Notes: generated by a model from the sequence alone, not told the origin. Counted from the first letter of the stretch, positions 1,588-50,470 are shown. The stretch is 64,000 nucleotides of DNA from Candidatus Latescibacterota bacterium (GCA_965261395.1 OZ253462.1:5344001-5408000), one strand, 5' to 3'. Numbers and translations: made by a program.

Positions 1588-2750
1588 TGGAACAGTTGCA
1601 TTTGGCCCTCGTGGGCTGTGGAGGCATGGCCGGAGCACACGTGCGCGGCTTGGAGGAGCTAGCGAAGGCCGGGATTGACGATATACAGGTGGTGGCCTGT
1701 TGCGACTTGGTGGAGGCACAGGCACAACAGCGGGCCGACGAGATCGCCGAGTTCCAAGAGCACAAGCCGGAGATCTATACCGACGTGGAGAGAATGCTCG
1801 CGCACGTGGAAGACCTAGACGCAGTGGACATCTGCGCCCTGCACTCGCAACACCACATCCTCGCCGTCACCTGTTTGGAGGCGGACAAGCACGTGATAAT
1901 CGAAAAGCCACTAGCGATTACCCTGCGCGCTGGTCGCAAAATACTCAATGCGGCCGTGGATAACCGCTGTCAGCTTGCCGTAGCGGAAAACTACCGCCGG
2001 TCGCCGCAGGAGCGGGCCCGATCTTGGGCGGTGGCCAGCGGGCGGATCGGCCAGCCGCGCACCTTCTACTGGCAGGAAGCGGGCTTGCGGCTGGGCAAGT
2101 GGGGTTGGCGCAATTTCAAGCGCGACGCCGGGGCCGGCTGGATACTCGACGGAGGCGTGCATTTTGCCGATCTGTTCCGCTATCACTTGGGCACGGAGGC
2201 GCGGCAGGTGGTGGCGCGAGTACACGGCTTTGAGCCGTATCGCTACGACGAGCCAGTCAAGCGCGAGGGGGCTTGGCCGGTGGATGTGGAGGACTGCGCC
2301 ATGGCGCTGATTGACTTCGACGGCGGTGCAGTGGTGCAGTGGACTTGGCAAGGTTCAGCGCCGGGACAGGACTTCAGCAAGCGCGTCCTCTACGGCAGCG
2401 AGGGCTGCATCGACTGGGAGAGCGGGCTGTGGACGCGCACCGGCACGAACACATCTAACGAGGCATTGGTCGAGGCGTATCATAACAGCCTCGCAGAGGA
2501 CGAGCGCGAGCGGCTGTTCCCCAAAGGAGTGGAAAATCCCATCTCAACCGAGTTGAAGGATTTCGCCGATGCCGTGCGGGGACAAGGTGTGCCCGAAGTC
2601 GATGGCCTAGACGGCTATCGCTCGCAGGCGATTTGCATGGCGCTCTTTGAGTCGGAGTGGTTTAACCGGCCGGTGAGCTTGGCCGAGATCGAGCGCGGCG
2701 ACTTGGAGGGCTACCAGGCCGAGATTGATCAGGCGTTGGGGATTGATTAG
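1587..2750 (+). CDS. Gfo/Idh/MocA family oxidoreductase
   Basis: LVGCGGMA Rossmann motif, HVIIEKP, AENYRR, GWILDGGVHFAD. Confidence 0.92.
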   Translation: MEQLHLALVGCGGMAGAHVRGLEELAKAGIDDIQVVACCDLVEAQAQQRADEIAEFQEHKPEIYTDVERMLAHVEDLDAVDICALHSQHHILAVTCLEADKHVIIEKPLAITLRAGRKILNAAVDNRCQLAVAENYRRSPQERARSWAVASGRIGQPRTFYWQEAGLRLGKWGWRNFKRDAGAGWILDGGVHFADLFRYHLGTEARQVVARVHGFEPYRYDEPVKREGAWPVDVEDCAMALIDFDGGAVVQWTWQGSAPGQDFSKRVLYGSEGCIDWESGLWTRTGTNTSNEALVEAYHNSLAEDERERLFPKGVENPISTELKDFADAVRGQGVPEVDGLDGYRSQAICMALFESEWFNRPVSLAEIERGDLEGYQAEIDQALGID

Positions 2751-2769
2751 GCGACGAGTTTTTCCTTAA
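2701..2769 (+). repeat. Direct repeat A1: 3' end of the Gfo/Idh/MocA gene plus 19 bp downstream
   Basis: Matches 6393-6460 with 3 substitutions and one 1-bp indel. Confidence 0.95.
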
Positions 2770-3946
2770 AATCCGCTGCTAGAGGTGGCGGAGCCTGATC
2801 TTTTGTTGAAGGCGTCGATAGATTGGGCACTAGGAGATACGACATCCAAGGCACGAACGCGGAGAAAAGACACCCAAAGACGCCGGACACGACTTAAAAA
2901 CACTCTAAAAAGCCTTCTTATACCTTCTAAATCTCACACACGAGGAAGCATTCGCTATGGAACCGAGAAACTACGCATTGGCCAATCTGTTTGAAAATCA
3001 GGGTATATATGTGGTCCCCCGATACCAACGGCTCTATGTCTGGAATCAAGAAGATCAGTGGGAACCACTGTGGGAGGATGTAATTGAGATAGCAGGTGAT
3101 CTGCTCAACGAGGCGACCAATCGAAACTCTGAAGAAGTGAACGCTGATTCCAGGGAGTCTCACTTTCTGGGAGCAGTCGTACTGAAACAGAGTGGCTTCA
3201 CGCCGGATATGGCCCAACGTTGGCGGGTGATTGACGGCCAACAGCGGCTTACGACTGTTCAACTGCTAATGACTGCTGTTGCTGACGAGTTAGACAAAAT
3301 TGAACTGTCCGTCCAAGCAGAGCGTTTAAGGAAACTAACGAAAAACTCGGCGGACGAGCCGTTCAAGATTATTCATGGCGGTCAAAACTACAAGCGATTT
3401 CGAGACGTGATGGAAGCAAATGGAGAAGAAAGTGTCATTGAGGCAATTGAAAGTCCTATGGCGGATTGTTATAAATACTTCCGCAACGTTGCCCACCAGT
3501 GGTTCGATGGACAAATTTCACGAATTCTTCTAGCAGCATCTGCACTTATCGCAGTTTTAATCGCAAAACTTCGTGTCGTTGCAATCTACTTGGATTCACA
3601 TGAAAAGGAGCACATGATATTCGAGACACTCAATGCACGAGGCGAACCGTTGACAGAGTGGGACAAGATCAAAAACTACTTGCTCTACAAGGCTGACGAA
3701 GACTCCGGCGTTGATCAAGATTCATTCTTCGACAAGTACTTGGAAATGTTCGATGATGATTGGTGGAGGGGACAAATCGGACGCGGGCAGAGGCCCCGTA
3801 CGGATATCTTCGCTGACTACTGGTTAGAATCAAGGGTCATGTCTCCTGTCAGCACTCGACGTGTATTTCGTATGTTTCAAAAGCACGTGGACGACGTCAA
3901 GGACAGCCTTGATGATTTAGGTCAAGATATTATTCAGGATGCGAAG

Positions 3947-5524
3947 GGGCACCTTAGCCGATTGTTATGGCACGATTTCGGTACGTATGTGTATATTTTA
4001 CAGTAACTTGTTCTATTCTTTTGCCGCCTCCCCCGCGGCACGCTCCCCTCGATTGAGAAAGAAGGGGAGCAATGCCTGCGATTCTCTCTCTGGCGCCCTT
4101 TCAGCAGCGGCAGCAGTGGGCGCGCTTTCGAAGTAGAGCGCATGAAGCCCTGGACGAGTTGCTGGATCGGGTGGAGACGCAAATGAGCGAGCACGGATCT
4201 ACTCCGCCGACGTTGATGGAGATTACCGAGGCGGTGTCGCAAGAGCGCTCCGGGCTTACCGCGGCGGTGGTGGAAGCCTTCATCGAACGCCGCCACGGCC
4301 AGTTCCTGGCGCAAGAAGAGGCGGCCTGCCCGAAGTGTGAGCGCGTCCTGCGTGCGCGACCGTCGCGCTCGCGCACGGTGGAGACGCTGCTCGGGCCGGT
4401 GCCCTTGGAGCGGCCCTATTTCTACTGCGTTTCCTGTGAGCACGGCTTTTATCCGCTGGACGAGGCCCTGGGCCTGTCGGGGCACCGCAAGCAGTGGGAC
4501 GTTCAAAACGCCGGGGTCAAGCTGGCGCTGGAGATGCCCCACCAGCGCGCCGCGAAGCTGCTGGACGAGCTGACCGACGCGTCGATGAGCGACTGTGTGA
4601 TTCACGAGGTGCTGCAACAGACCGGGTCGTTGGACGTGCTGCAGGTGTGTCCGGACGCGGCCGACATCCAGGATCGCATTGCTCAAGCCGCCGCCGCTCG
4701 CAAGTGGCGGCCCATCGTGGTGTTGGCCATCGACGCGGCCGACGTGCCCAGTCGTCCCGAGACCGCCAAAGGGACTCGTCCGGGGCGCAAGAAGAGCCGG
4801 GCTCGGCGAAGGCGTTGGCAGGGTGAATACCACGAAGCCAAGGGCTTTCGCTTCTACTTGGTAGACGATGAGCGCATCGAGCAGCTGATCTCCTGGCACC
4901 AGATGGGCGACGAACAGGCCTTCGGCTCGGCCTTGCGCCAGGTCAAGGAGGCGGGGCTGATCCCGGAGGAGCAGGTGCGCTTGTGTGCCATCGGGGACGG
5001 AGCCCCGTGGATCTGGAAATGGGTGGAGGAACTGTTCCCGAGCGCCCGTCAGATCCTCGACTACTACCATTGTAGCCGCTACCTGCACGCGGTGGCCGAG
5101 GCTCAATACGGCACCGATGCGGCGCGCGCCAGCCATTGGCTGGAAGCGACTCTGGCGCGCCTGTTCTGCGGTGAGGGCACCGGCGTGGTTTGGGGTCTGC
5201 AGCGCATGCAGGCGGTCTCGGAAGAGGCCGAAGAAGCGATCGGCACGGCCTTGACGTACCTGCAAAAGCGATTGCATCAAGTCGATTTCGGCAGCCATCG
5301 CAAGGGCGGATACCCGATCGGGTCGGGTGCGATCGAATCGGCGCATCGCTTCATCGGCCATGTTCGTCTGAAACGCTCGGGCGCTTGGTGGTATAAGGAA
5401 AACAGCAACGCCATTCTTGCCCTGCGTTGCGCCTTGTACAATGGAACGCTTGACCGGGTCTTTCAGCAGTACCGAGACAACCTAAAAACAACCACCAAAA
5501 CCGTAACAATCACCTAATGCACCC
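3947..5524 (+). mobile_element. ISKra4-family insertion sequence, 1578 bp
   Basis: 24-bp imperfect terminal IRs (GGGCACCTTAGCCGATTGTTATGG vs GGGTGCATTAGGTGATTGTTACGG, 18/24); 8-bp TSD ATGCGAAG at 3939-3946 and 5525-5532. Confidence 0.93.
4072..5517 (+). CDS. ISKra4-family DDE transposase
   Basis: CPKC/CVSC Zn motif, IGDGAPWIW, ILDYYH, GYPIGSGAIES. Confidence 0.9.
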   Translation: MPAILSLAPFQQRQQWARFRSRAHEALDELLDRVETQMSEHGSTPPTLMEITEAVSQERSGLTAAVVEAFIERRHGQFLAQEEAACPKCERVLRARPSRSRTVETLLGPVPLERPYFYCVSCEHGFYPLDEALGLSGHRKQWDVQNAGVKLALEMPHQRAAKLLDELTDASMSDCVIHEVLQQTGSLDVLQVCPDAADIQDRIAQAAAARKWRPIVVLAIDAADVPSRPETAKGTRPGRKKSRARRRRWQGEYHEAKGFRFYLVDDERIEQLISWHQMGDEQAFGSALRQVKEAGLIPEEQVRLCAIGDGAPWIWKWVEELFPSARQILDYYHCSRYLHAVAEAQYGTDAARASHWLEATLARLFCGEGTGVVWGLQRMQAVSEEAEEAIGTALTYLQKRLHQVDFGSHRKGGYPIGSGAIESAHRFIGHVRLKRSGAWWYKENSNAILALRCALYNGTLDRVFQQYRDNLKTTTKTVTIT

Positions 5525-6392
5525 ATGCGAAGTATTATCAGAAATTTGAACAACGGGACGACTACGAACAGACCTATGAAAGGCAGTTCCACAATCGCCG
5601 AATGTCCCTGGAGGTTGGCGCTATGTGGCCGCTATTACTGCAGTTGCAGAGGGTCGAATGCAAACAGCGGGAACAGGCGTTTGCGTGCTTGGAAAGTTAT
5701 TGGGTTCGGAGACTTATCGCCGGATATCAAGCACGAAGCTATGATCAAGTCACTTTGTACTTGCTTCATACTCTTAATGAATTCAAAAAATTTAAAAAAG
5801 ACGGCGATGTAATCATGCACTCTCTACAGCACTACAAGGAGAGAGGAACAGTTTGGCCGTCTGATAACGAGGTGAGATCAGCGATTCTAGAAAGGCGTTT
5901 ATCGTCGTCTGCACAGAACATAGTGCTCCACGCTATCGAAAAGCACCTGATGCCTGAATCTGCTCCGAATCCCACTGTATATCGAAATGTGCAAGTTGAG
6001 CATCTCATGCCCCAATCATGGAAAAATGAGCACTGGCAGTTAAGCCCACTTGAAGAAGTAGAGGATGTCACCGAGGAACGAAACCGCTTGATCCACACAC
6101 TGGGTAATCTAACATTAGTCAATAGTAGATTGAATGCTTCTATGAGTAATGGTCCTTGGCATCGTAAGCGAGAAGCCATCAAGGAATCGGACAATCTCTT
6201 TATTAACAGGAAATTGCTTGACGATGCATCTGATGTTTGGGATGAAGAGCAGATTGTCAAACGAGGTAAGTGGATGGCGGACATTATCCTCAATATTTGG
6301 CCACGTGAGGCGTAATTACGACGATTATCGGGAAGCGAATGATTTCGGATTGCTGTGATAGAAATCGCGTCGCAACAGGCTGATGGCGAGGT

Positions 6393-6460
6393 ACTTGGAG
6401 GCTACCAAGCCGAGATTGATCAGGCGCTGGGGATTGATTAGGCGACAAGTTTTTCCTTAA
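6393..6460 (+). repeat. Direct repeat A2: displaced copy of the Gfo/Idh/MocA 3' end
   Basis: Encodes YQAEIDQALGID* like 2701-2769, but is not part of any gene. Confidence 0.95.
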
Positions 6461-6466
6461 GGACGG

Positions 6467-7075
6467 CTAGGACTCGCCCAAAATTTCCTGGAGCAACTCA
6501 GGATGCCGTCGCCGCAACTCCAGTAGCCTGCTGGCTGTTCCCACCGGCGTCAAGTGAGCAGAGCGCGGAATCTGCTGCTTCTCTTGTAGCATACCTCCGC
6601 GCTGCTCTACGTCCTGAATCGCGAGCGGTCGTTGGCCAAGGGAGTAGAAGAGTTCCGGTTCAAGCTGCACGAGGGCCGGCAGATCCCTGGGTTCAGCGCG
6701 TCCAATCGCAGTGCCGACGTACACGGCGACTTTCCTACCCGCGATAAATCCTGGCTCGTTCCCTTCCCACAGGAACTGTACTCCTTCGGGCACGCTCTGC
6801 GGAAGAAGCGGCGACACCGCACCGGTTGGATCTAGCGAGAACGGACGAATCGATCTCGCAAAGGCGACCTTGCAGCCGATTTCTTCGAGTGCCTCTCTAT
6901 ACAGGGCATCCTCAATGGTCTCGCCCTCCTCGACAGTTCCACCGATACAGCCCATTCCAATCCTCAAAACTCCCTCTTGCTGACGCCTCCATTTCGCCGA
7001 CTTCTGGAGTTCAAAGAGGAATCTATTTTCGACTCTTAAAAGAATTGCAACGCCAATGATCAAAATACCTGACAT
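6467..7075 (-). CDS. NUDIX hydrolase
   Basis: Nudix box GGTVEEGETIEDALYREALEEIG. Confidence 0.88.
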   Translation of the reverse strand: MSGILIIGVAILLRVENRFLFELQKSAKWRRQQEGVLRIGMGCIGGTVEEGETIEDALYREALEEIGCKVAFARSIRPFSLDPTGAVSPLLPQSVPEGVQFLWEGNEPGFIAGRKVAVYVGTAIGRAEPRDLPALVQLEPELFYSLGQRPLAIQDVEQRGGMLQEKQQIPRSAHLTPVGTASRLLELRRRHPELLQEILGES

Positions 7076-7154
7076 ATCCTATTTGGTGCGGCTCAATGCC
7101 AGTCAAGCTGTTGGACTTCCGTGCGAAGGTCGTCAGGGGAGGAGAGACGTCTCC

Positions 7155-7469
7155 TTATACTTCAAGTGCCATGTTAAGCGGCTCAATCGTCTCTAGTGTC
7201 TGAGCCTCAGATTGGGTGGCGTGATACAGATCCCAGCGAAGTTGAAGATTCAGCCAAAACGCAGGCGACACGTCGAGATATTTTGCTAGGCGTAGGGCTG
7301 TGCTCGGAGTAATACCACGTCGGCCGTTTACCAATTCGTTGACCCGCTGATAAGGAACATGAATCGCGGTAGCCAATTCGCGCTGTGTTAAACCCAAAGG
7401 ATTTAAAAACTCCTCCAGCAACATCTCACCAGGGTGTGTCGGAACGCGATCTGTTGGAATACGTACCAT
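7155..7469 (-). CDS. higA: HigA antitoxin
   Basis: THPGEMLLEEFL, HTH, TALRLAKY, FWLNLQ. Confidence 0.93.
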   Translation of the reverse strand: MVRIPTDRVPTHPGEMLLEEFLNPLGLTQRELATAIHVPYQRVNELVNGRRGITPSTALRLAKYLDVSPAFWLNLQLRWDLYHATQSEAQTLETIEPLNMALEV

Positions 7470-7493
7470 GGATCGACACCTCTTGTTCAGTAA

Positions 7494-7787
7494 TTAGTGA
7501 TAGTCGACGATCTCGACAGCCTGAGGACCAGCATCCGACCATACAAAGCAAATCCGGTATTGATCATTGATCCGAACACTATATTGTCCAGACCGCAGGC
7601 TCCGCAAGGCCTCGAGATGATTGCCAGGTGGACTGCGTAAGTCGCGCAGTTCATCGGCCGAGTCCAGTTGTTCAAGCTTTCGTGCAGCTACAGTCCACAA
7701 AGACGATGGACAAGTACCGCGTGCAGCACGTGTGTCCCGTCCATTGAAGATATCCTCAGTGCCAGTACGCCGGAACGATTGAATCAT
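7494..7787 (-). CDS. higB: HigB (RelE/ParE) toxin
   Basis: MIQSF, PPGNHLEAL, YSVRINDQYRICF, VEIVDYH; lies upstream of higA. Confidence 0.93.
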   Translation of the reverse strand: MIQSFRRTGTEDIFNGRDTRAARGTCPSSLWTVAARKLEQLDSADELRDLRSPPGNHLEALRSLRSGQYSVRINDQYRICFVWSDAGPQAVEIVDYH

Positions 7788-7789
7788 GA

Positions 7790-7822
7790 TAGCATTATAA
7801 CACGGAACTCATGCTACGTCAA
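7790..7822 (-). promoter_or_regulatory. Sigma70 promoter of higBA with an inverted repeat
   Basis: TTGACG-17-TATAAT-6-ATG on the minus strand; TAGCAT-N15-ATGCTA inverted repeat at 7790-7816. Confidence 0.8.
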
Positions 7823-8000
7823 TTATATGCATATCTGGAAATGATACAGGGGTTCTCCCGGCCTTACTGATGACTACCTCATCGGGCGATGCAGTTGGAA
7901 GGTGATCCTTTAACACAAGCACTTCGTAGCCTGCCTGTCGTAGATCATCTACAACCACCGTCGGCACGCAATGGTCAGCAAAGAAAACTGCCGCCATCAA
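7809..8000 (-). pseudogene. DUF5615 PIN-like toxin, N-terminal fragment
   Basis: FFADHCVP..VVDDLRQAGYEV..SPDEVV; family similarity is lost near 7860; coupled to DUF433. Confidence 0.75.
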
Positions 8001-8221
8001 GCTGCTACTTCAAAATCGGCCAATTCACGGGCATAATCCAAGCAGGCGGCGATGCTCTCGGTCGTCAGATCTGGGAATTCGGCTATGATCTGGTCAGCGG
8101 AATAGCCATCCGCCAAGTAGCCGAGTACCAGAGCCACAGGGATTCGGGTATTCTTGATACGCGGTTTCCCGCGCAGCACGTCCGAAGTGCTCTCGATGTA
8201 GTCTTTCCACGCCGTAGGCAT
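7997..8221 (-). CDS. DUF433 domain antitoxin
   Basis: GKPRIKNTRIPV, IIAEFPDLT..IAACLDYA. Confidence 0.9.
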   Translation of the reverse strand: MPTAWKDYIESTSDVLRGKPRIKNTRIPVALVLGYLADGYSADQIIAEFPDLTTESIAACLDYARELADFEVAA

Positions 8222-8439
8222 TGTAAAGCCTCCTATTGAGGACTACATAGCTAAAGGAATACGGTCTGGGGCGAAGCAAGAGTGAGACGCCATTCCTTTA
8301 AAAATGCAGAGGTCAATAATGGTCTGCAGATTGCCGTTTTGTCCTAATATATAATCCAGATCCGCTAAGAGAAGTCCATTGATCAAAGCACGAGTTCTTA
8401 CTTTCTGATGATGTTGTTAGGCGGAACTGTCGTGCTCTA

Positions 8440-9333
8440 TCAGGATAAGGCTCTGAGCGATGCGACTCTTATATCGTCAAGCTCATCCGCACTGAACACC
8501 TTGGCCTTGAACAGGTTCATGTATTCTTGCGAGACGCTCTGACCGAAGATCATTAGATCGTCTGTATTGACCGGCACCTCAACTCCGTGATCGAACAACA
8601 CAGCGGATGGGATGGGACGCGAGATTGGCAGTTGCGCCCAGCATAACGTTGCTCGAAGGGCAGATGTGTAGTCGAATCCTATTTTGCGCCAACCACTCCA
8701 TGACTTCGGCGGATTCCGCGGCCGCAATACCATGTTGTATTTCCGCTAACCCAAGCACTTCAGCCGTCTCCTGCACCCGTTCCGCTCCTCTAAACTCTCC
8801 CACGTGTGCCTTCAGTTTCATCCCGGCCGATTGAGCATAATGGACATAAACAGGCCAGAGTCTATTCCCTCGCGGACCCGGTCCTTGATCTCGGTGTTGC
8901 CGATGGTTTCTCGTGCGATTCCCAGTTCCGGTCTCAGATCAATCCGCTCGCGATGGCGCTCTACCAATTGTCGGATGAATGCCGCAAAACCGGCAAAGCC
9001 TGTTTCGAAGTGGCCAGCCGAGCGCACATCAAAGCTCATCTCTAGTCGCTGGACTCCATCTTGCATCGCATCGACCACCGCAGCCTCCGCAGTGAATTCA
9101 AAACCAGCTAGTGAGTTGATGTAGGGATCTAGCGCCTTGGAGGTATAGTCCAGCATTCCACGCAGCCCTCGCATTGGGGTAATCGGCCTAGCCAACGAAT
9201 GCCCTAGCCAACGCTCGACGTTCTCGATCCGCGTACCGAAGTAACAATGACAGTGGTAATCAGCTTTCGGCACACGCCGTACTGACGCTAGGTCCTCTGT
9301 CTCAAGAGCCTGAGCAAACGGGATAGCTATCAC
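8440..9333 (-). pseudogene. Adenosine deaminase-like protein, degraded
   Basis: PKADYHCH, KAHVGEF, ICPSSN and VNTDD are spread over three frames; apparent deletion near 8840 and +1 insertion near 8603. Confidence 0.85.
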
Positions 9334-9437
9334 CGATAATCTCGCCTAGTATTGTTCCTAGTCCTGAATCGAAAAGACATTGGGTGAAAGACCGCATGGC
9401 CCAAGCCGGACATGGAAGTGTTCGCCGAAGCATGAAC

Positions 9438-30541: not shown

Positions 30542-30721
30542 CTACCGATGGCATTTTTATCCTTGACAACACTCGATACTGCCCACCCCGGCCGCTGCTA
30601 TTTCTTCAGGACGTTGAGGCCGCCATCTCCCTAGGCGCTGGGGAACCGACCCACAGACGCCGTTTTGGTGCTCTAATCTCAAACTTACGCAAGGAGGAGG
30701 CCAATGGCCAAGATCAAGGAA
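30542..30721 (+). repeat. Direct repeat B1: copy of the leader, RBS and first 6 codons (MAKIKE) of the 33469 gene
   Basis: Aligns with 33308-33486, roughly 80-85% identical by eye. Confidence 0.93.
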
Positions 30722-31010
30722 TACGGACCAGCGAATAGTCTAGGCGGAACAGAACCAAATCCATGGCCACCTTCCAGATGCTTTTGTGCAACGAGGAGTT
30801 TATGGCCGAGGTGGGGAACTGGCCCTGCGCTTGACGGGCGTATTGGAGCGGGAAGCAGGCGAATGGAAGTTCGCGCAGATCCACGCTTCCATAGGGGTGG
30901 CCTAGCGCGAGGAACTTGCGCCGCCGATGGGAAAACGCTCCATTACCTGTTAGGCTCCCTTTGCGCGTCCTATATTTGGATCATTGGCTTGGCTCAACCG
31001 GATAAATCCC

Positions 31011-33314
31011 ATGCGCAACGCCATCCTCGTGAGTGCCCTAGTGCTCGCCACGCCCCTCGCGGGCGACCAACTCCGCATCGCCACCTCGAACGACTGGCAC
31101 CAATGGCAACTGCCCGGCGACGCCGTCGAGGTCGCACGCGGTACGCTCAAACCCTCCTTTGTCCGCCGCAATATCAACGCCGTCGCCAACGCCTTTGACT
31201 TTGCCGGCGGCATCCGCAAAGTAGGCTCCAACCCCGGCGACGCCCTCAAGCTCATCGATGGCGACCTAGCCACCTATTGGGCTCCCGATCCGACCGCCAG
31301 CGTAGAGGACTGGTGGATCGAAGTCGATCTGGGGCGCGTTGTATCGGCGCGCAAAATTGAGCTCCACTTCGCCGCCGACAGCACCCCGCTGGAGTTTTTC
31401 AAAATCCTCACCTCCGACGGCGAGCCTTTCTTCAGCAATGCCAATTCCATTCTTCCCGGCACGCTGCGCTACAACAAGCGCTGGCGCTATAGCTTTAACG
31501 AATCACACCTCATCGAGATTGACTACCAGCTCAAGCCGCTCAAGAATATCCGCATCGCGGCCGACCTGCCCACGGAGCATATCCGCCTGACCGAGGTAGT
31601 GGTCGAGAGCGTCGGCGACAACCTTTCGCTGGGGATCTGGGGCCGGGGAGGCAGCGTCGAAATTGTCTCTGAGGCCACCTCTAAGATCGGCCGTACCCTC
31701 ATCGAGTCGAAGGGGATCAGCAATACCCTCGTCGATGGCGATATTACCACCTATTGGGGTACGGTGCATCGCGGCGGCTCCGGCACGCAGCCCGAACAAC
31801 AGATCGGACAGTTCGAGATTGACCTAGGTGCGCTGTATTGGGTGGACAGGGTGCGAATGCTCGGTGATGCCAGTGGCATCGCGCCTAAGGCGGCGTGCGG
31901 CGATTGTGGCCGGCAACGTCAATTCAACTACCTCTGGTACCAATTCTTCGCCTCGGACGGATCGAAGGCACCGGATGGCTCGCTGAGCTGGGAGCTGCTG
32001 GGCGAATTGCCCTCGGATCGCCGCAACCTAACGCAAGTCCGCCATTTCCAGGAGCGCTTCCCGCTGCGCAAGGTGCGCCACGTGCGGCTGCTCTTCCCCA
32101 TGTCCGAGGGCTTCGAAGCCTTTAACGGCCGCATCGGCACCACGGCCGAGTGGCAGGTCTTCGGCGAGGGCCACCCGGCCGCGGTGATGGCGCGCTCGCC
32201 GATTTACGACCTGGGCTCCATCCAGCATATTGCGGAAATAGGCTGGGCAATCGACGCACCGCCGCAGACGCGCGTCGAAATTCGCAGCCGCACCGGCAAC
32301 CTCCTCGACAACCAGCACATCTTTTACGATAAAAACGGCAAGCAAGTCACCGAGAGGAAATACAACAAGCTGATCCCCAGCTTCAAAGGGGCCATCGACA
32401 CCGTCCGCACCGCTGGAGCCGACTGGAGCAACTGGAGCCGGGCCTACGCGACCTCCGGACAGGTCTTCCTCTCCCCCGGCCCTCGGCGCTACGTGCAGTT
32501 GGACATCCACTTCCTCTCCGAAGACCCTTTCGCCACCGCGACCTTAGACGATATCGTCCTCGAATTCGGCAACCCGCTGGCCCAACAGACGCGCGCCGAA
32601 GTCTTTCCCATCGAGGTTTCCCCCGGCGAAATGAGCCAATTTACCTACTATCTTCGCTCCGACTTCGTCTCGTCCAGCCGGGGCTTTGATCAGATCCAAC
32701 TGGCCTCCACCGCTGGGGCCACCTTCCGTGCGCTGCGGCTCGCCGGCGAGCCGGTCACCGCCCCGGTCGAAGAAACCGAAAATGGCTTTAAGATCCTCCT
32801 CGCTGAGCCGGTGCGACGCTCGGCCCTAATCGAAATTGACTTCGAGAGCATCCTCTATCTCAACCAGACCCGCTTCGAAGCCTTTCTCTTCAACAGCACC
32901 CTGTCAACTACCTCGCGTCAACAGGTTGACCCCGGCGACGCCGAGGCCGCCATTACCAGCGACCGGACCTTTGTCTCCTTGCCCACCGACGGGCGACTCT
33001 TTGCGGACTTCTCGCTATCGAACCGAGTACTGACTCCCAATGGCGACGGCATCTCAGACCAGTTGCAAATTGACCTCGACCTGTTCAAAATGCTCGACCC
33101 GCGACCGGTCATCATCGGCGTCTATAACTTAACTGGCCACCGGGTCGCCCTCATCAGCGACGCGGCCACCACGGCCGGTCACCAGACCTATCAATGGGAC
33201 GGCCGCGACAGCCAAGGCCGCACCGTTGCGCCCGGGATCTACATCCTCCGCGTCACGGCTGAAGGCGACGCGCTGACCCGCAGCGAGAACCGCCTGATCT
33301 CGGTAGTCTACTGA
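31011..33314 (+). CDS. Secreted discoidin-like / FlgD-Ig C-terminal protein (paralogue 4)
   Basis: Signal peptide MRNAILVSAL; LIDGDLATYW..VDLGR; YDKNGKQVTERKYNKLIPSFKG; LTPNGDGISD..WDGRD..SVVY. Confidence 0.82.
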   Translation: MRNAILVSALVLATPLAGDQLRIATSNDWHQWQLPGDAVEVARGTLKPSFVRRNINAVANAFDFAGGIRKVGSNPGDALKLIDGDLATYWAPDPTASVEDWWIEVDLGRVVSARKIELHFAADSTPLEFFKILTSDGEPFFSNANSILPGTLRYNKRWRYSFNESHLIEIDYQLKPLKNIRIAADLPTEHIRLTEVVVESVGDNLSLGIWGRGGSVEIVSEATSKIGRTLIESKGISNTLVDGDITTYWGTVHRGGSGTQPEQQIGQFEIDLGALYWVDRVRMLGDASGIAPKAACGDCGRQRQFNYLWYQFFASDGSKAPDGSLSWELLGELPSDRRNLTQVRHFQERFPLRKVRHVRLLFPMSEGFEAFNGRIGTTAEWQVFGEGHPAAVMARSPIYDLGSIQHIAEIGWAIDAPPQTRVEIRSRTGNLLDNQHIFYDKNGKQVTERKYNKLIPSFKGAIDTVRTAGADWSNWSRAYATSGQVFLSPGPRRYVQLDIHFLSEDPFATATLDDIVLEFGNPLAQQTRAEVFPIEVSPGEMSQFTYYLRSDFVSSSRGFDQIQLASTAGATFRALRLAGEPVTAPVEETENGFKILLAEPVRRSALIEIDFESILYLNQTRFEAFLFNSTLSTTSRQQVDPGDAEAAITSDRTFVSLPTDGRLFADFSLSNRVLTPNGDGISDQLQIDLDLFKMLDPRPVIIGVYNLTGHRVALISDAATTAGHQTYQWDGRDSQGRTVAPGIYILRVTAEGDALTRSENRLISVVY

Positions 33315-33486
33315 TGGCATTTTATTTTTGACAACGCTCGATACTGCCTACCCCGGTCGCTGCGACTTCCTCAGGACGTTGAGGCTGACGCCTCCCTAGG
33401 TGCTGGGGACCCGACCCACAGAACGCCGTTTTGGCGCTCTAATCTCAAACCCACATAAGGAGACATTCATGGCCAAGATCAAGGAA
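33308..33486 (+). repeat. Direct repeat B2: functional leader and start of the dehydratase gene
   Basis: Matches 30542-30721. Confidence 0.93.
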
Positions 33487-38948: not shown

Positions 38949-39011
38949 TTGTTCCTCTTCGTTTAACTGGATAAAGTCGTCAAATACCGGCGTCGAAACC
39001 GCATTAAACAC

Positions 39012-40979: not shown

Positions 40980-40986
40980 CGCGGCC

Positions 40987-42987: not shown

Positions 42988-43068
42988 AAGCCAGCTTCAG
43001 AGGCGATTCTAGCGGGATTCAACGCGGACAATATGGTTTCAAGACACCGCAGCCGCAATCCTGCCGCG

Positions 43069-44914: not shown

Positions 44915-45110
44915 TTGACTCCTTTCCGAGTGAGCACCGCGCTCAATATCGCCTTGTAAGAGCGGTCTGTCGAGTCTAGTGATGGAGGGACGCTCCCCTT
45001 CCACGTGGAGCGGGCCAATATCCAGGCTTCAAATAAGAGAAAATTCGATTATGTCTCAACATCCCGTTATATTTATAGGTTCGCTACGGTGCCGCGCCGC
45101 AGTGCTGTCC

Positions 45111-45260
45111 GTTGCCTTTCTCGACCGCCAGACAGAAAAAATCGGCGCGCTGGCAGCAAAAATCGAGGCCGCTACGAACGATCTGCAAGAGTACCGTTCC
45201 GTCCTCATCACCAACGCTGAGACCGGCAAAATTAACATGAGAGAGAACGCTGCTTTATGA
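45111..45260 (+). pseudogene. hsdS: Type I R-M specificity subunit, C-terminal stub
   Basis: VAFLDRQTEKI..LQEYRSVLITNAETGKI is typical of the HsdS C-terminal helix; its stop overlaps the next ATG. Confidence 0.75.
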
Positions 45261-45990
45261 ACATTGACTCTATATACTTCAAGGGATATAGCTGTTTCAA
45301 AAAGAAGTGGGCTGGCTTCGATACAATCAAGCCGATCAACGTCATCATTGGACGCAATAACTCCGGAAAATCCCATCTTTTGAACTTGGTTGAATCACTA
45401 TACGATGCCAGGCTATCCCACCATGAATGGCAGACTCAGTGCCACGGTGTGTTAGACGAGGAATCGCTAAAGAAAGTTTTTCCAGAAAGGCGAAGGGATA
45501 CAAGTCAAAACTTGAATGCAGCTCTCGTGTTCAGCGACGTACAGCCTTTAGTCGGCGAGAAGCTAATATGGGAAGTGGCCCCAAGCCGGTCCGAGTCGCC
45601 ACCGCATGGATACGGATTGCAGGTATCGAGTTTAAGGTTCCCAGCTTTCTCATCAGAACAATCAAGCAATATCCCTTTAGCAGTTGAGGAGATGCTGAAA
45701 AGCGCAACGCACCAGTTTAGCTACTCACCAGAACAATCAGGAAATATCCCCTCAGGGATTCATAACATGCTACGAGATACAACACACCAGTTTCGTACGG
45801 CGTCATTCTGCAGACTCCTTGCGGACCGGGATATCGAGACTGAACTAGAAGATATAGAGATGGAACTTGGCCGAGACGGTCAAGGAGCTACAAATATAAT
45901 ACGTCGGCTCATTCTAACATCTGACGAGCGATTCTCAAGAGAAGTTATCCAAGAAGAACTTCTGGCCGCGCTGAATTTAATATTTGGAAG

Positions 45991-47175
45991 GGCTTTGGTG
46001 CATGAATTGGTGTTTTTTTCGGTTGATCGGTTGAATAAAAACAGGCTCCTCAGTAGATTGAGCACGACTTTCGCCAAAAAACCCATGCTTTCTCGTCCAA
46101 GGAACCTGTCATGGCCAACCTATCGTCTTGCCCCTCTTCCGTCAAGCCTGGTCGCTCGCCTCGCCGTCGCTCCAACGTCGTGTACCGGGTACGTAATTGG
46201 GCCGACTATGAGGCCGGGCTGCAACAGCGCGGTAGTCTGACGGTGTGGTTCACGCCCCAGGCCGTCGAAGCTTGGTATTATCAAGGGCCGCCTCAGCGGG
46301 GGGCGCAATATACCTTTTCGGAGGTCGCCATCCAAACGGCGTTGACGCTGCGTCTTTTGTATCACTTGCCCCTACGCCAAACCGAGGGGTTTGTCGCTTC
46401 GGTGTTGGCCCTGATGGGCTTGGATCTGCGGGTGCCCGATCACACGACCCTGTCGCGCCGTCAGGCGGGTTTAGCCGTGGCGTGGCCGCCCCAGCGGGGA
46501 GACCAACCGATGCACTTGGTGGTGGATTCGACCGGGCTGAAAGTGTATGGCGAAGGCGAATGGAAGGTGCGTCAGCACGGCTGGAGCAAGCGGCGCACGT
46601 GGCGCAAATTGCACCTCGGGGTTAATGAAGCCACCGGCGAGATCGTCGCGCAGACCTTGACGACGAATAGCCACGATGATGCGGGGCAGGTGGAGCCGTT
46701 GCTGGCACAGATCGAGGCCCCCGTGGAGGCGTTGGGCGGCGATGGGGCCTATGACAAACGCAAGGTGTTCAAGGCGTTGGCCGCGCCCGAGCAGGGGGCA
46801 CCTATTCATCCGATCATTCCGCCGCGCAAGGACGCCAAAATCGAGCAACATGGCAACACCAACGCCGAGCCGTTGCCCCGCGATGAGACGATTCGAGCCA
46901 TCCGCAAACGGGGCCGTCGAGGTTGGAAACACGAGAGCGGCTATCATCGACGCTCGGTAGCCGAAACGCAGATAGGCCGCTACAAACAGATACTTGGTGA
47001 CACCTTGCGCACCCGAACCCTAACCAACCAACAGACCGAAGCGCGGTTGGGCTGTGCCTTGCTCAACCGGATGCGGGCGTTGGCGAAACCTGAGTCCTAT
47101 CCGCTAACCAAAAAAGCGTAAATCACACGCGAAAGAAGCCAACACGGCCCCGACCGGTTTTCATGCAACAAAGCC
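45991..47175 (+). mobile_element. IS5-family (IS903 group) insertion sequence, 1185 bp
   Basis: IRs GGCTTTGGTGCATGAA / GGCTTTGTTGCATGAA (15/16); 9-bp TSD ATTTGGAAG at 45982-45990 and 47176-47184. Confidence 0.95.
46111..47121 (+). CDS. IS5/IS903-group transposase
   Basis: NWADYEAGLQQRGSLT, VDSTGLKVYGEGEW, WRKLHLG, DGAYD, SGYHRRSVAET. Confidence 0.93.
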   Translation: MANLSSCPSSVKPGRSPRRRSNVVYRVRNWADYEAGLQQRGSLTVWFTPQAVEAWYYQGPPQRGAQYTFSEVAIQTALTLRLLYHLPLRQTEGFVASVLALMGLDLRVPDHTTLSRRQAGLAVAWPPQRGDQPMHLVVDSTGLKVYGEGEWKVRQHGWSKRRTWRKLHLGVNEATGEIVAQTLTTNSHDDAGQVEPLLAQIEAPVEALGGDGAYDKRKVFKALAAPEQGAPIHPIIPPRKDAKIEQHGNTNAEPLPRDETIRAIRKRGRRGWKHESGYHRRSVAETQIGRYKQILGDTLRTRTLTNQQTEARLGCALLNRMRALAKPESYPLTKKA

Positions 47176-48357: not shown

Positions 48358-48909
48358 CTAGAAAATCTCGTTTAAGCCAACGGAGAAACCTGTGAGTGTG
48401 GACGAGGTCATCGTTTGCCCCTCGCCGTAGATGGCCTCCACCTCGAAGGCACCTTCGCCGAGCCGCAGCACCGTCACCGTCCGGGCGTCCGAATCGACTA
48501 GCCAGTATTCCTTCACGCCATACTTGGCGTACAGGGCGCGTTTGAGCGTCCGGTCCCGCCCGGCAGTGGAGGGGGACAGGATCTCGACGACCAAATCCGG
48601 TGCACCGAGGACATTTGCGCCGCCGAGCAGCAGGTGCGCTCGCTCATTGGAGACGAACAATAGGTCCGGCTGTACCACATCCGTATTCGACAGCACCACG
48701 TCGCAGGGCGCGTGGAAGACCTCGCCTAAACCCCTCTCCTGTACGAAGCCATGGAGCAACGCTCCTAGCCGGATGCCAATTCTCTGGTGCTCTAGGTTGG
48801 GCACCGGGACCATAATCAACTCTCCGTCCAATAACTCGTAGCGCTTGTCCTCGGGGGTATGTTGGTAGTCCTCATAGGTGAACTTGACGGCTGGGTTGGG
48901 GCTGAGCAT
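48358..48909 (-). CDS. Uma2 family endonuclease
   Basis: RYELLDGEL, VQPDL, APDLVVEILSPST, GVKEYWLVD. Confidence 0.92.
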   Translation of the reverse strand: MLSPNPAVKFTYEDYQHTPEDKRYELLDGELIMVPVPNLEHQRIGIRLGALLHGFVQERGLGEVFHAPCDVVLSNTDVVQPDLLFVSNERAHLLLGGANVLGAPDLVVEILSPSTAGRDRTLKRALYAKYGVKEYWLVDSDARTVTVLRLGEGAFEVEAIYGEGQTMTSSTLTGFSVGLNEIF

Positions 48910-48994
48910 ATCGCCCTCCTCTCATCGCTGGATGTGCGGTTTACGGACGCCTAAATATCGGTCAACCAGCTACCAATAATCTAACCACCCCGCC

Positions 48995-49062
48995 CTACTC
49001 TGCGAGCCGCCCAAGATCATCCGGCCCCACGTGTTGTCGTCGTCGCCATTGCCGTAGATCAT
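48995..49062 (-). repeat. Direct repeat C: displaced copy of the 3' end of the 49655-50470 gene
   Basis: Matches 49655-49744 with 3 synonymous substitutions and a 22-bp deletion between CCAA microhomologies. Confidence 0.95.
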
Positions 49063-49105
49063 GAGCAAGTTCGTCTTTTGCATTTTACACCTGAATGAGG
49101 GTGAT

Positions 49106-49642
49106 TCACTGCATCAATCGGTCAACCTGAGCCAAAATTTCATCGGCTGCCGGCCGGTCGGAGATGCTTCTCCCTACGTATTGCCATTCGATGTCGCCCC
49201 CAGGCGAGACGATGACCGCGGACGGCGTCGCAACGCCGTCACGCAGCAGGTTGTAAACTCCGTAGCCTTTGGCTACCTCGGCGTCCTTGTCTGACAGAAT
49301 GGCGAATTCAGCGCCGGTGAGCTCCGCCATTTTCAGCGCGTCGGCGATGTCATCAGTGCTGATCGCCGCAAGCGACACATTGCGCTTTAGAAACTCAGGA
49401 TACAACTCTACCAACTCACCTAGTTGGCTCCTACAGACACTTCAGAAGAATCCTCTGTAGAACAGCAGTACCGCCGCCGTGCGGTTGTCGAGTAAGTCGG
49501 ACAGGGAAACAGAAGTCCCATCCGCCGCCGGTAAGGTGAACGCAGGCGCTCGACCTCCCGAGGAGACCGGATTGGAGTTGCAGCCGACGAGGGCCATGAG
49601 GGTCGCTATTGCCAAGGGCAGCAGCACTGCTCTATGGTGCAT
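49106..49642 (-). CDS. AhpC/TSA peroxiredoxin-like lipoprotein with selenocysteine (UxxC), 178 aa
   Basis: LVGC lipobox, APAFTL, FYRGFF-TGA(49442-49444)-SVCRSQL, continuing in frame to AISTD..ILSD..YGV. Confidence 0.85.
49411..49427 (-). promoter_or_regulatory. Candidate bacterial SECIS hairpin
   Basis: CCAACU-AGGUG-AGUUGG; the loop starts 20 nt after the UGA and has G at position 2. Confidence 0.65.
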
Positions 49643-49654
49643 TTTCTTTCTCCT

Positions 49655-50470
49655 CTACTCGGCGAGTCGCCCAATCGGCGTCCGCGGGCCGACCAAGATC
49701 ATCCGGCCCCACGTGTTGTCGTCGTCGCCGTTGCCGTAGATCATAAAGTGGCCGCCGTACGCGCCGCCGTCCGGGTCGGTATGGACGATTTCCATGCTGT
49801 ATTCGTCGCCTACTTGCGGCGGCTGCCAACGGGGGTCGCTCTGGCCAAACGTCGGAGCCATCTCGACGCGGGCTTCGATGATGAAATCGGCCGCGCTCCG
49901 GCCCCAAGGATCCATGCGCACCACGTAGTCGCAAGCGGCTTCGGGGATCGGTTCTTCAATGTAGCTCTGGCCAGGTGCGCCGTGCCGCCACCAAGCGTTT
50001 TGCGGGGTGCGCTGTGGGTCGGCGACAAAGCAGAAGGCATTGTCGCCTTGGCCGAAGCGCTCGTTGGCCCGGTCGCGCGGGCCTTCCATAAACCAGCAAA
50101 TCGCATCCTTAAAATACCAACGCTTGTCCGCCGGATCGGGGTCGTCGAGGTCGTTGACGTTGTCCCAGACCTCGGCCCCGAAGTAAAAGTTGTGCGCGTC
50201 CCAAGCAATGTAGTAGCGGGCGCTCAAGTCGTCTTCGAGGTGCGGCTCATTGCCGTGGTCGGTGAGGCGATTGCGCGCGCCGCGATCGAGGCGGTAGAAG
50301 CCAGCCTCGCTGATGCGGCGCATGTCCCAGACTCCGTCGTTGTGAGCGCGGTCCTTCCACTCGGCGAGGTCGCCGTCAATGGTCGGGGCCGTCTCCAACA
50401 GGGGGGCGTTGATGTTCATGTCCGCGCACGCGGCAGAGGCGGCGAGCAAAATCGCGCACAAGGGCAGCAT
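49655..50470 (-). CDS. Secreted CBM9/DOMON-like sugar-binding protein
   Basis: Signal peptide; APTIDGDLAEW, YIAWDAHNFYFGAEVWD, IIEARV; RBS GGAGA. Confidence 0.7.
   Translation of the reverse strand: MLPLCAILLAASAACADMNINAPLLETAPTIDGDLAEWKDRAHNDGVWDMRRISEAGFYRLDRGARNRLTDHGNEPHLEDDLSARYYIAWDAHNFYFGAEVWDNVNDLDDPDPADKRWYFKDAICWFMEGPRDRANERFGQGDNAFCFVADPQRTPQNAWWRHGAPGQSYIEEPIPEAACDYVVRMDPWGRSAADFIIEARVEMAPTFGQSDPRWQPPQVGDEYSMEIVHTDPDGGAYGGHFMIYGNGDDDNTWGRMILVGPRTPIGRLAE

What the first reader, a model, noticed from the sequence alone, without database searches (positions are those of the whole stretch)
2701..49744. Three integrase-free cassettes, each bounded by a diverged copy of a neighbouring gene's end
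Seen: three unrelated cargoes (GmrSD 2957-6315, secreted protein 31011-33314, Sec-peroxiredoxin 49106-49642) each sit between a functional gene terminus and a second, non-functional copy of it. All five coding substitutions in pairs A and C are synonymous, and the coding part of pair B is identical. Established: integrative elements that target ORFs restore the gene and displace the old end, and homology-facilitated illegitimate recombination anchors foreign DNA on one homologous side. Inference: the two copies were alleles in different strains, and one recurrent gene-capture route acts at unrelated genes with no integrase in the cargo. This is my best candidate for an undescribed system here.
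Basis: partly seen in the sequence, partly recalled or inferred. Interest (0 to 1): 0.8.

Follow-up and report, generated by a model that had tools for sequence, protein, structure and literature searches.

The report
Recombination scars duplicating gene ends
Small gene cassettes in this genome sit between a gene's real end and a decayed second copy of it; this looks like the scar of ordinary recombination between different versions of a locus, a pattern already in print, not a new mobile system.

Summary
The three repeat pairs are real. They belong to a genome-wide class. There are 61 isolated direct repeat pairs of 55 nt or more within 15 kb, against 4 inverted pairs and 1-3 direct pairs per distance band further apart. 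Twenty-seven cleanly duplicate a gene's 3' end (22) or 5' end (5) around 0.3-12 kb of cargo.

No cargo ORF is an integrase. The genome has only 4 tyrosine-recombinase hits and no serine recombinase. The repeats share no motif.

Copy differences are 62% synonymous, and no pair is identical. At four sites (pairs B and C, and the AHJR and RmuC cassettes elsewhere in the genome), other species of the genus carry at least one of the two gene-end-plus-neighbour arrangements on its own; at three they carry both.

The likely route is one homologous exchange in the gene end plus one illegitimate joint. Pair C shows a 3-nt overlap at that joint.

The pattern is already in print as "insertion with long target duplication", as homology-facilitated illegitimate recombination (HFIR), and as single-crossover integration. 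A genome from another family shows about half the density. It is a known kind, of moderate interest.

The parts
1587..2750 (+). Target gene of pair A: GFO/IDH/MocA-type oxidoreductase, intact
   Evidence: ORF; Pfam hits. Found in all 18 genus members searched at 75-93% identity.
2703..2769 (+). Copy A1: last 48 nt of the gene plus 19 nt downstream, attached to the gene
   Evidence: A contig spanning 2728-3684 bridges A1|cargo in runs X19, X20 and X1.
2770..6393 (+). Cargo A: GmrSD type IV restriction gene (N part 2957-3938, C part 5527-6315), interrupted by an insertion sequence
   Evidence: Pfam GmrSD_N and GmrSD_C. Cargo absent from all 30 relatives. GC 0.535. Frame continuity across the insertion sequence is my own arithmetic from the joint 3938->5525.
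3946..5528 (+). Insertion sequence inside GmrSD (transposase ORF 4072-5517, UPF0236 family); a secondary event, not the vehicle of the cassette
   Evidence: Seven copies in the genome at 100% (rounded) identity, counting the window's own. Pfam. Contigs skipping 3938->5525 occur in 3 runs, with a shorter side of 23 nt.
6394..6460 (+). Copy A2: displaced, non-functional gene end, contiguous with the native downstream flank
   Evidence: G004 and G002 have one copy followed by the same flank, i.e. an empty site. X1 contig 6099-6477 bridges cargo|A2.
30555..30721 (+). Copy B1: displaced promoter/leader and first 18 nt of the MR/MLE gene; resembles the allele of the empty-site species G008
30722..33319 (+). 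Cargo B: secreted F5/8-type-C protein with a type IX secretion C-terminal domain (30984/31011-33314)
   Evidence: Pfam. 95% paralog at G000:2299407-2301908, equivalent to window 30815-33317. Cargo plus gene are contiguous in G041, G039, G002, G035 and G011.
33320..33486 (+). Copy B2: working promoter/leader and start of the MR/MLE (enolase-superfamily) gene 33469-34677
48358..48994 (-). Uma2-family endonuclease cassette (ORF 48358-48909 plus its 85-nt leader). In 10 other species the same cassette sits directly after the stop codon of the pair C gene.
   Evidence: Pfam.
48995..49062 (-). Copy C1: displaced gene end (last 90 nt minus 22 nt), contiguous with the Uma2 cassette. Its inner edge is the illegitimate joint, with a 3-nt overlap (ATG in gene sense; window 49060-49062).
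49063..49654 (-). 'Cargo' C: peroxiredoxin with an in-frame TGA (49106-49642) and its 3' flank; contiguous with the gene as in 11 other species
49655..49744 (-). Copy C2: working 3' end of the CBM9-like gene (49655-50839 at the longest)

Best explanation
These are recombination scars, not mobile elements.

In this genus the DNA next to many conserved genes differs between lineages: different cassettes, often defence or toxin-antitoxin genes, or none. When DNA from one version enters a cell carrying another version, it is fixed by two events. One is a homologous exchange inside the shared gene. The other is an illegitimate, microhomology-level joint that happens to fall inside the gene's last, or first, 55-300 nt.

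The gene stays whole and now abuts the incoming neighbour. The resident gene end is pushed to the far side of the insert, where it decays.

Two routes give this product:
- A single (Campbell-type) crossover of a fragment that had circularised by illegitimate end-joining.
- A homology-facilitated illegitimate recombination event whose illegitimate joint lands inside the anchor gene.

Shown:
- The genome-wide class and its orientation.
- The lack of integrases and of a common motif.
- The synonymous bias.
- The separate existence of both haplotypes in relatives.
- One joint with a 3-nt overlap.

Inferred:
- The order of events.
- The route of DNA entry.
- Which of the two recombination routes acted.
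For: 1. Class and orientation. There are 61 isolated direct pairs within 15 kb, against 4 inverted pairs and 1-3 direct pairs per distance band further apart. Fifty-seven of the 61 were classified; 4 with unequal copy spans were skipped. Of the 57, 35 have one copy in a well-scored gene and the other outside one. Ten are tandem paralogs, 1 lies within one gene, and 11 have neither copy in a well-scored gene. Of the 35, 22 are 3'-end type with the dead copy downstream, 5 are 5'-end type with it upstream, and 8 are other.

2. The copies were both under selection. There are 105 synonymous and 65 non-synonymous differences (62% synonymous). Random hits with the observed transition/transversion ratio would give 30% (p about 2e-17). 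An in-place duplication with one freely decaying copy would give 42-45% (p at most 1e-5). None of the 61 pairs is identical, and only 1 has one mismatch or fewer.

3. Both haplotypes exist separately.
- Pair C: the real end runs into Prx as in 11 species. The dead end runs into the Uma2 cassette exactly as the real end does in 10 species.
- AHJR nuclease cassette (genome 2869232/2870430): AHJR-gene occurs in G001, G038 and G033. Upstream block-gene occurs in G037 and G039. G000 is the sum of the two, with the first 202 nt of the gene doubled.
- RmuC cassette: gene-RmuC is contiguous in 5 species without duplication.
- Pair B: copy B1 resembles the empty-site allele of G008, and copy B2 travels with the cargo.
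- Pair A: the site is empty in G004 and G002 and holds McrBC in G011.

4. The joint of pair C is identified. The Prx 3' flank is homologous to G009 and G005 up to ...gctcATG. G000 then continues ATCTACGGC..., which is the gene's own sequence, so the overlap is 3 nt.

5. No dedicated machinery.
- 0 of 103 cargo ORFs in the 33 pairs outside the window hit an integrase or resolvase at E<=1e-5.
- None of the window's cargo ORFs does either.
- The genome has 4 PF00589 hits, none in the window, and 0 PF00239 hits.
- No k-mer is shared by the 27 repeats beyond 100 random sets.

6. Precedent. Single crossover of a re-circularised molecule duplicated 109-950 bp of the homologous locus in 56 of 60 clones (PMC3240628, passages read).
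Against: - Only one joint (pair C) could be resolved to microhomology. At the AHJR and RmuC sites, 58 and 106 nt of filler of unknown origin lie at the joint.
- No donor haplotype was found for cargo A. It is in none of the 30 relatives. The 22 metagenome loci found are only 34-63% identical in protein.
- Canonical homology-facilitated illegitimate recombination gives deletions, not duplications (PMC3240628).
- No circular or excised form was seen, but only contigs were laid, and contigs drop rare variants.
- 38% of the differences are non-synonymous, so part of the divergence arose after displacement. A pure in-place origin followed by allele replacement through later homologous recombination is not excluded for individual pairs.
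- Locus C has a more tangled history than one event. Short remnants resembling the gene end follow Prx in G041, G038 and G036 too.
- Gene calls are from my own crude caller.
- Relatives are different species, so no within-species comparison was possible.
Confidence: 0.7

Rival explanations
1. True long target duplication. An unknown insertion process, for example one tied to double-strand breaks made by restriction systems, copies 55-300 nt of the target at the moment of insertion. The copies start identical and diverge in place.
For: - This is how the pattern is described in PMC2853133 (passages read).
- Many cargoes carry restriction, methylase or toxin-antitoxin families: about 15 of 33 by my reading of the family names, plus GmrSD in pair A.
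- Pair B is old. Its joint is shared by 5 species, so its 12-14% divergence could have arisen in place.
Against: - None of the 61 pairs is identical, and the synonymous share of 62% exceeds the 42-45% expected if one copy decays freely.
- At pair C and the AHJR site, each copy is contiguous with a different neighbour that exists on its own in other species. A target duplication does not predict this.
- Metabolic and transporter operons are cargo too.
Confidence: 0.12
2. A self-propagating, recombinase-free cassette cycle. Once flanked by gene-end repeats, a cassette loops out as a circle through RecA and re-enters naive genomes by a single crossover at the gene end it carries.
For: - The architecture is what such a cycle would leave.
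- In pair B, the variant next to the ribosome-binding site is swapped between the two copies in different species. G000 has V1 then V2; G002 and G035 have V2 then V1. Repeated exchange between the copies would produce this.
- The Uma2 cassette appears at two positions, in one of them carrying a piece of the gene end.
- PMC2853133 proposes a similar life cycle for restriction-modification units (Discussion read).
Against: - No excision joint or circle was found in four runs, though only contigs were laid.
- The repeats are short and 76-99% identical, which I would expect to make them poor RecA substrates (my own knowledge, no call).
- The same cassette with the same repeats was not seen at a second target.
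- The swap in pair B can be plain gene conversion.
Confidence: 0.13
3. Site-specific integrative elements whose integrase was lost or acts in trans, with the repeats as attL and attR.
Against: - 0 of 103 cargo ORFs hit an integrase.
- The genome has only 4 tyrosine-recombinase hits and no serine recombinase.
- The repeats share no core motif.
- Repeat lengths range from 55 to 300 nt.
- 5'-end cases exist.
- Cargoes are as small as 0.3-0.6 kb.
Confidence: 0.03
4. Assembly artefact from mixing strains.
For: Run X20 shows lower contig depth over cargo A than over its flanks (about 145 against about 300), so related genomes without the cargo may co-occur.
Against: - The genome is one closed contig.
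- Contigs from three studies bridge A1|cargo, and one bridges cargo|A2.
- Pair B's joint is present in four other species' genomes.
- The same class of pairs occurs in G041 and G029.
Confidence: 0.01

Closest known systems
Insertion with long target duplication (Nobusato et al. 2000, recalled; Furuta, Abe & Kobayashi 2010, PMC2853133, passages and Discussion read)
   Same: - Inserts under 20 kb with no mobility gene, flanked by direct repeats longer than 30 bp (the examples read are 46-423 bp) that are imperfect (e.g. 384/412).
- The repeats can overlap the 3' end of a gene.
- A related genome has one copy and no insert.
- Type IV restriction systems are among the cargoes.
   Different: - That work screened only restriction-modification units and found a handful per comparison. 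Here any kind of gene is cargo, and one genome holds 27 clean cases.
- That work reads the repeats as a duplication of the target. Here the copies look allelic.
Homology-facilitated illegitimate recombination (de Vries & Wackernagel 2002 and Prudhomme et al. 2002, not held; described in PMC3240628 and PMC5361080, passages read)
   Same: - One homologous anchor plus one illegitimate joint at a 3-10 bp microhomology.
- No recombinase of its own.
- Foreign DNA is captured next to a conserved gene.
   Different: The canonical product is an insertion coupled with a deletion. Here the resident gene end is kept, so a duplication results. The Uma2 insertion seen in 10 relatives, which removes the ribosome-binding site and about 19 nt of the Prx gene, is the canonical type.
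Single-crossover (Campbell-type) integration of a re-circularised fragment (Amarir-Bouhram et al. 2011, PMC3240628, passages read)
   Same: It duplicates 109-950 bp of the homologous locus on either side of the insert and needs only general recombination.
   Different: It was shown with a plasmid in E. coli conjugation. No circular intermediate was seen here.
C-terminal displacement in Rhs and type VI secretion effector-immunity loci (Jackson et al. 2009, cited only; Kirchberger et al. 2017, PMC5361080, passages read)
   Same: An incoming module brings a new 3' end, and the old 3' end is shifted downstream as an orphan.
   Different: Those loci are toxin families with long variable tips and arrays of orphans. 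Here the genes are ordinary housekeeping and metabolic genes, and only 55-300 nt is displaced.

Membership tests
Insertion with long target duplication (PMC2853133 criteria) | Insert under 20 kb flanked by direct repeats longer than 30 bp | tested here: met
   Pair A: 3.6 kb insert, 67-nt repeat. Pair B: 2.6 kb, about 166 nt. Pair C: 0.6 kb, 68/90 nt. Genome-wide: 61 pairs.
Insertion with long target duplication (PMC2853133 criteria) | A related genome holds a single copy of the repeat and no insert | tested here: met
   Pair A: G004 and G002. Pair B: G008. AHJR site: G037 and G039. These are other species, not conspecific strains.
Insertion with long target duplication (PMC2853133 criteria) | No other mobile element accounts for the insertion | tested here: met
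   No integrase or resolvase among the cargo ORFs. The insertion sequence in cargo A lies inside GmrSD, not at the cargo's ends. By my reading, transposase families occur in 6 of the 33 other cargoes, again not at their ends.
Insertion with long target duplication (PMC2853133 criteria) | Both a restriction gene and a modification gene inside the insert | tested here: not met
   Pair A carries a type IV restriction gene (GmrSD) but no methylase hit. Pairs B and C carry a secreted protein and a peroxiredoxin. Elsewhere a type I system, two methylases and a nuclease are cargo.
Insertion with long target duplication (PMC2853133 criteria) | Both repeats derive from the one target sequence | tested here: not met
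   None of 61 pairs is identical, and there is a synonymous excess. Each copy is contiguous with a different haplotype at pair C and the AHJR site.
Homology-facilitated illegitimate recombination | Illegitimate joint at a short (3-10 bp) microhomology | tested here: inconclusive
   Pair C has a 3-nt overlap. The AHJR and RmuC sites have filler of 58 and 106 nt. The donor for pair A is unknown.
Homology-facilitated illegitimate recombination | Insertion coupled with deletion of resident DNA | tested here: not met
   The resident gene end is kept, giving a duplication, in all 27 clean pairs.
Homology-facilitated illegitimate recombination | Natural transformation as the entry route | not testable with these tools
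   ComEC and two DprA-family matches are present and Ku is absent. ComEC and DprA also ring in most control genomes, so they prove nothing.
Campbell-type single crossover of a circular molecule | Direct duplication of the homologous segment on both sides of the insert | tested here: met
Campbell-type single crossover of a circular molecule | Circular intermediate, or chimeric make-up of both copies | tested here: inconclusive
   No circle or excision joint appeared in the contigs of 4 runs. The copies of pair C carry no haplotype-specific differences that could show chimerism.
Integrase-borne integrative element | Integrase gene in or beside the element | tested here: not met
Integrase-borne integrative element | Common att core at the joints | tested here: not met
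   No shared 8- to 11-mer beyond random sets.

The most novel reading that the evidence does not exclude
Gene-end repeats act as homology addresses for a recombinase-free cassette cycle. A cassette bounded by the two copies loops out through general recombination, travels as DNA, and re-enters any genome of the genus that has the same conserved gene. Defence and toxin-antitoxin genes would then circulate among lineages without integrases or transposases.

The swapped variants between the copies of pair B in different species would be traces of repeated rounds. So would the Uma2 cassette carrying a gene-end piece to a second position.
Probability: 0.15. Interest if true: 0.6.

Novelty: new member of a known kind. 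Interest (0 to 1): 0.33.

Why it matters
How small defence and accessory cassettes move between genomes without any mobility gene is an open practical question for defence-island biology. This genome gives a clean natural sample of the answer "general recombination plus one illegitimate joint". It holds 27 scars with a measurable allelic signature, and at several sites both parental arrangements survive in sister species. That makes the process countable in genomes through a simple screen for short, diverged, local direct repeats at gene ends.

It does not reveal new machinery. A genome of another family shows the same kind of pair at about half the density, so the trait is probably widespread and not special to this lineage.

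Tried and rejected
- Donor for cargo A. The metagenome scan with the GmrSD N-terminal part gave 22 loci at only 34-63% protein identity, so no donor haplotype was found.
- Excision or circle joints. No joint between A1 and A2 was listed among the contigs of four runs. Contigs drop rare variants, so this says nothing either way.
- Microhomology at the AHJR and RmuC joints. Unexplained filler of 58 and 106 nt blocks the test.
- Common motif. None found.
- Intragenomic source of cargoes. Apart from insertion sequences and a few short partial matches, only cargo B has a paralog spanning most of its length, out of 46 cargoes examined.
- Ku-type end joining. No Ku match in the genome.
- The two original 2002 papers on homology-facilitated illegitimate recombination are not held. 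What I say of them comes from PMC3240628 and PMC5361080.
- One literature search failed on a term's syntax and was not repeated.
- The stop-codon boundary. In about half of the 3'-type pairs the repeat ends within a few nt of the stop codon. I considered a targeting mechanism. I rejected it because several pairs continue with indels beyond the ungapped match, and because species differ immediately after the stop codon at site A. The boundary is where the haplotypes diverge.


Full report
THE OBSERVATION

Pair A copies the last 48 nt of a GFO/IDH/MocA oxidoreductase gene (1587-2750) plus 19 nt downstream. The copies are 2703-2769 and 6394-6460. The repeat finder reports 2709-2769 / 6400-6460 at 95%.

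Pair B copies about 150 nt of promoter and leader plus the first 18 nt of an MR/MLE enolase-superfamily gene. The copies are 30555-30721 and 33320-33486, 86-88% identical, with the 18 coding nt identical.

Pair C copies the last 90 nt of a CBM9-like gene on the minus strand (49655-49744). The second copy is 48995-49062 and lacks 22 nt.

An ungapped alignment of pair C gives 1 synonymous and 2 non-synonymous.

Corrections to the cargo descriptions:
- GmrSD is split by a 1.58-kb insertion sequence with 7 copies in the genome, all at 100% rounded identity and counting the window's own.
- Cargo B has a 95% paralog at 2.30 Mb.
- The peroxiredoxin of pair C is the gene's usual neighbour in the genus.

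NOT CHANCE, NOT AN ARTEFACT

I ran my own k-mer and extension pipeline over the genome and kept isolated pairs. These are pairs of 55 nt or more with a spacer of 150 nt or more and no other repeat within 300 nt.

| Orientation | Distance | Isolated pairs |
|---|---|---|
| Direct | within 15 kb | 61 |
| Direct | 15-30 kb | 2 |
| Direct | 50-65 kb | 3 |
| Direct | 200-215 kb | 1 |
| Inverted | within 15 kb | 4 |
| Inverted | 15-30 kb | 1 |
| Inverted | 50-65 kb | 2 |

Contigs of public runs from three studies bridge the A1|cargo joint (2728-3684, 0-1 differences). One bridges cargo|A2 (6099-6477). Pair B's joint is present in four other species' genomes.

A GENOME-WIDE CLASS

I used a crude codon-usage gene caller and classified 57 of the 61 pairs. 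Four with unequal copy spans were skipped.

| Class | Pairs |
|---|---|
| One copy in a well-scored gene, the other outside one | 35 |
| Tandem paralogs | 10 |
| Both copies within one gene | 1 |
| Neither copy in a well-scored gene (pair B falls here) | 11 |

Of the 35:
- 22 duplicate a 3' end, with the dead copy downstream of the cargo.
- 5 duplicate a 5' end, with the dead copy upstream.
- 8 are other kinds. By my reading, these include an ExbD tandem pair and a subtilase domain repeat.

Cargoes are 0.3-12 kb, often below the genome's G+C. Apart from insertion sequences and a few short partial matches, only cargo B has a paralog spanning most of its length in the genome, out of 46 cargoes examined.

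WHAT THE CARGO IS AND IS NOT

Of 103 cargo ORFs in the 33 pairs outside the window, none matched an integrase or resolvase at E<=1e-5. Nor do the window's cargo ORFs.

The whole genome has 4 tyrosine-recombinase matches, 3 of them over the cut-off and none in the window. It has no serine recombinase. The 27 clean repeats share no 8- to 11-mer beyond 100 random sets.

By my reading of the family names, about 15 of the 33 cargoes carry restriction, methylase, toxin-antitoxin or other defence-type families. These include:
- a type I restriction-modification system;
- Dcm with a HATPase;
- an N6/N4 methylase;
- an AHJR nuclease;
- PIN (four times), HicB and Fic;
- AAA_15/21, TIR-TPR, Schlafen and Uma2.

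Others are plain metabolic or transporter operons.

Site A is a defence hotspot. It holds GmrSD here and McrBC in G011, and it is empty in G004 and G002.

THE TWO COPIES ARE ALLELES, NOT A FRESH DUPLICATION

In the 27 clean pairs the coding differences are 105 synonymous and 65 non-synonymous, which is 62% synonymous.
- Random hits with the observed transition/transversion ratio would give 30% (p about 2e-17).
- An in-place duplication with one freely decaying copy would give 42-45% (p at most 1e-5).
- None of the 61 pairs is identical.

The 38% non-synonymous share shows that some decay has followed.

More direct evidence is that other species carry each half separately.

Pair C. In 11 of 30 species the gene's stop codon runs straight into the Prx ribosome-binding site, as at copy C2. 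In 10 species the stop codon runs into the Uma2 cassette, as at the dead copy C1. G000 therefore joins a gene-Prx block to a gene-end-Uma2 block.

AHJR site (genome 2869232/2870430). AHJR-gene occurs in G001, G038 and G033. Upstream block-gene occurs in G037 and G039. G000 has both, with the first 202 nt of the gene doubled.

RmuC site. Gene-RmuC is contiguous in 5 species without any duplication.

Pair B. Copy B1 resembles the allele of the empty-site species G008, and copy B2 travels with the cargo. The joint aaggaa|tacggacc is shared by G000, G011, G041, G002 and G035, so this scar is old.

THE JOINT

At pair C the Prx 3' flank is homologous to G009 and G005 up to ...gctcATG. Those species go on with gaagag..., while G000 goes on with ATCTACGGC..., the gene's own sequence 90 nt before its stop. 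This is an illegitimate joint with a 3-nt overlap.

G041 has a different joint that keeps only about 11 nt of the gene end. G038 and G036 also carry short remnants resembling the gene end after Prx. The locus has therefore been hit more than once.

In the 10 species with Uma2 next to the gene, the Uma2 stop codon is fused to a Prx gene that lacks its first ~19 nt. That is an insertion with a small deletion.

At the AHJR and RmuC joints, 58 and 106 nt of filler of unknown origin prevent the same reading.

MECHANISM

The simplest account is one homologous exchange in the conserved gene plus one illegitimate joint that falls inside the gene's terminal 55-300 nt.

According to PMC3240628 (passages read), canonical homology-facilitated illegitimate recombination pairs the insertion with a deletion. 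In contrast, duplication of 109-950 bp of the homologous locus arose in 56 of 60 clones by single crossover of a molecule that had been cut back and re-circularised. Either that route, or a homology-facilitated event whose illegitimate joint lands within the anchor, gives the architecture seen here. I cannot tell them apart with these data.

How the DNA enters is unknown. ComEC and two DprA-family matches are present and Ku is absent, but ComEC and DprA also ring in most control genomes.

COMPARISON WITH WHAT IS KNOWN

Furuta et al. 2010 (PMC2853133; passages and Discussion read) define "insertion with long target duplication". The definition covers restriction-modification units of all types, inserts under 20 kb, repeats longer than 30 bp (the examples read are 46-423 bp and imperfect), and no mobility genes. 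Some repeats overlap gene 3' ends, most cases are in competent species, and the mechanism is unknown. Pair A fits the description apart from criterion (i), which asks for both a restriction and a modification gene: GmrSD has no methylase partner in the insert.

Kirchberger et al. 2017 (PMC5361080; passages read) invoke homology-facilitated illegitimate recombination for displaced effector 3' ends. They cite the same idea for Rhs C-terminal displacement.

What this genome adds:
- the scale, with 27 clean cases;
- cargo of any function;
- evidence that the "target duplication" is in fact two alleles.

It is not peculiar to the lineage. The same pipeline found the following densities:

| Genome | Relation | Isolated direct pairs | Sequence scanned |
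|---|---|---|---|
| G000 | this genome | 65 | 6.4 Mb |
| G041 | same genus | 10 | 0.8 Mb |
| G029 | another family, same class | 4 | 0.8 Mb |

VERDICT

The claim of an undescribed system is not. I file this as a new member of a known kind, with moderate interest.

The boldest reading still open is a recombinase-free cassette cycle that uses gene ends as homology addresses. I put it at about 15%.

Noticed in passing
window 3946-5528 (transposase ORF 4072-5517): Insertion sequence of the UPF0236 family with 7 copies in the genome, all at 100% rounded identity. Contigs of three runs also carry the GmrSD gene without it (joint 3938->5525, 8 nt fitting either side). The insertion therefore looks recent and polymorphic. 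Without it the GmrSD frame is continuous by my arithmetic.
   Followed up: partly
window 49106-49642 (-), TGA codon at 49442-49444: A peroxiredoxin-family gene has an in-frame TGA at residue 67 (FFUSVC). The genome has a tRNA-SeC at 871108-871206 and a SelA match at 2059236-2060330 (478.6 bits). Selenocysteine read-through is therefore plausible.
   Followed up: partly
L033 (G011:C1:5993500-6001000), ORFs 3027-5594 and 1782-3014: At the same place where G000 has GmrSD, species G011 has a McrBC-type pair (an AAA_5 protein plus McrC) with no repeat around it. This is a defence hotspot with allelic replacement.
   Followed up: partly
window 2758-9431: A contig in a run labelled sponge metagenome (X2; contigs 90-99% alike) joins 2757 to 9432 with 66 other letters between. 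In that relative the whole stretch holding the GmrSD cargo, the NUDIX gene and the HTH genes is replaced.
   Followed up: no
window 30815-33317 and G000:C1:2299407-2301908: The secreted F5/8-type-C protein gene with its 170-nt leader exists twice in the genome at 95% identity. That is closer than to the copies at the same site in other species (89-93%), which suggests gene conversion between the paralogs or a second transfer.
   Followed up: no
window 33455-33470 vs 30690-30705, and L010-L014: The 12-15 nt between the ribosome-binding site and the start codon come in two variants. These are distributed differently over the two copies of pair B in different species, which is a sign of exchange between the copies.
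   Followed up: no
L029, L030 (G035, G010) and 8 further species: The Uma2 cassette is inserted exactly after the stop codon of the CBM9-like gene. Its own stop codon is fused to a peroxiredoxin gene lacking its first ~19 nt, with a 2-nt overlap (AG) by my reading. The peroxiredoxin may be dead in those species.
   Followed up: partly
window 39011-42987: Two adjacent paralogous genes of about 2 kb on the minus strand (655 and 666 aa), 78-87% identical over the stretches found, in a region of strong AT skew. These are ordinary tandem paralogs, not cassettes.
   Followed up: no
window 45649-45793: Two 70-nt units 75 nt apart (71% identical) in a low-G+C stretch next to a DDE transposase gene (46180-47121).
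   Followed up: no
window 29708-30493 (-): A second, short GmrSD_N-only ORF (261 aa) lies next to pair B. It is conserved beside the MR/MLE gene in many species of the genus.
   Followed up: no
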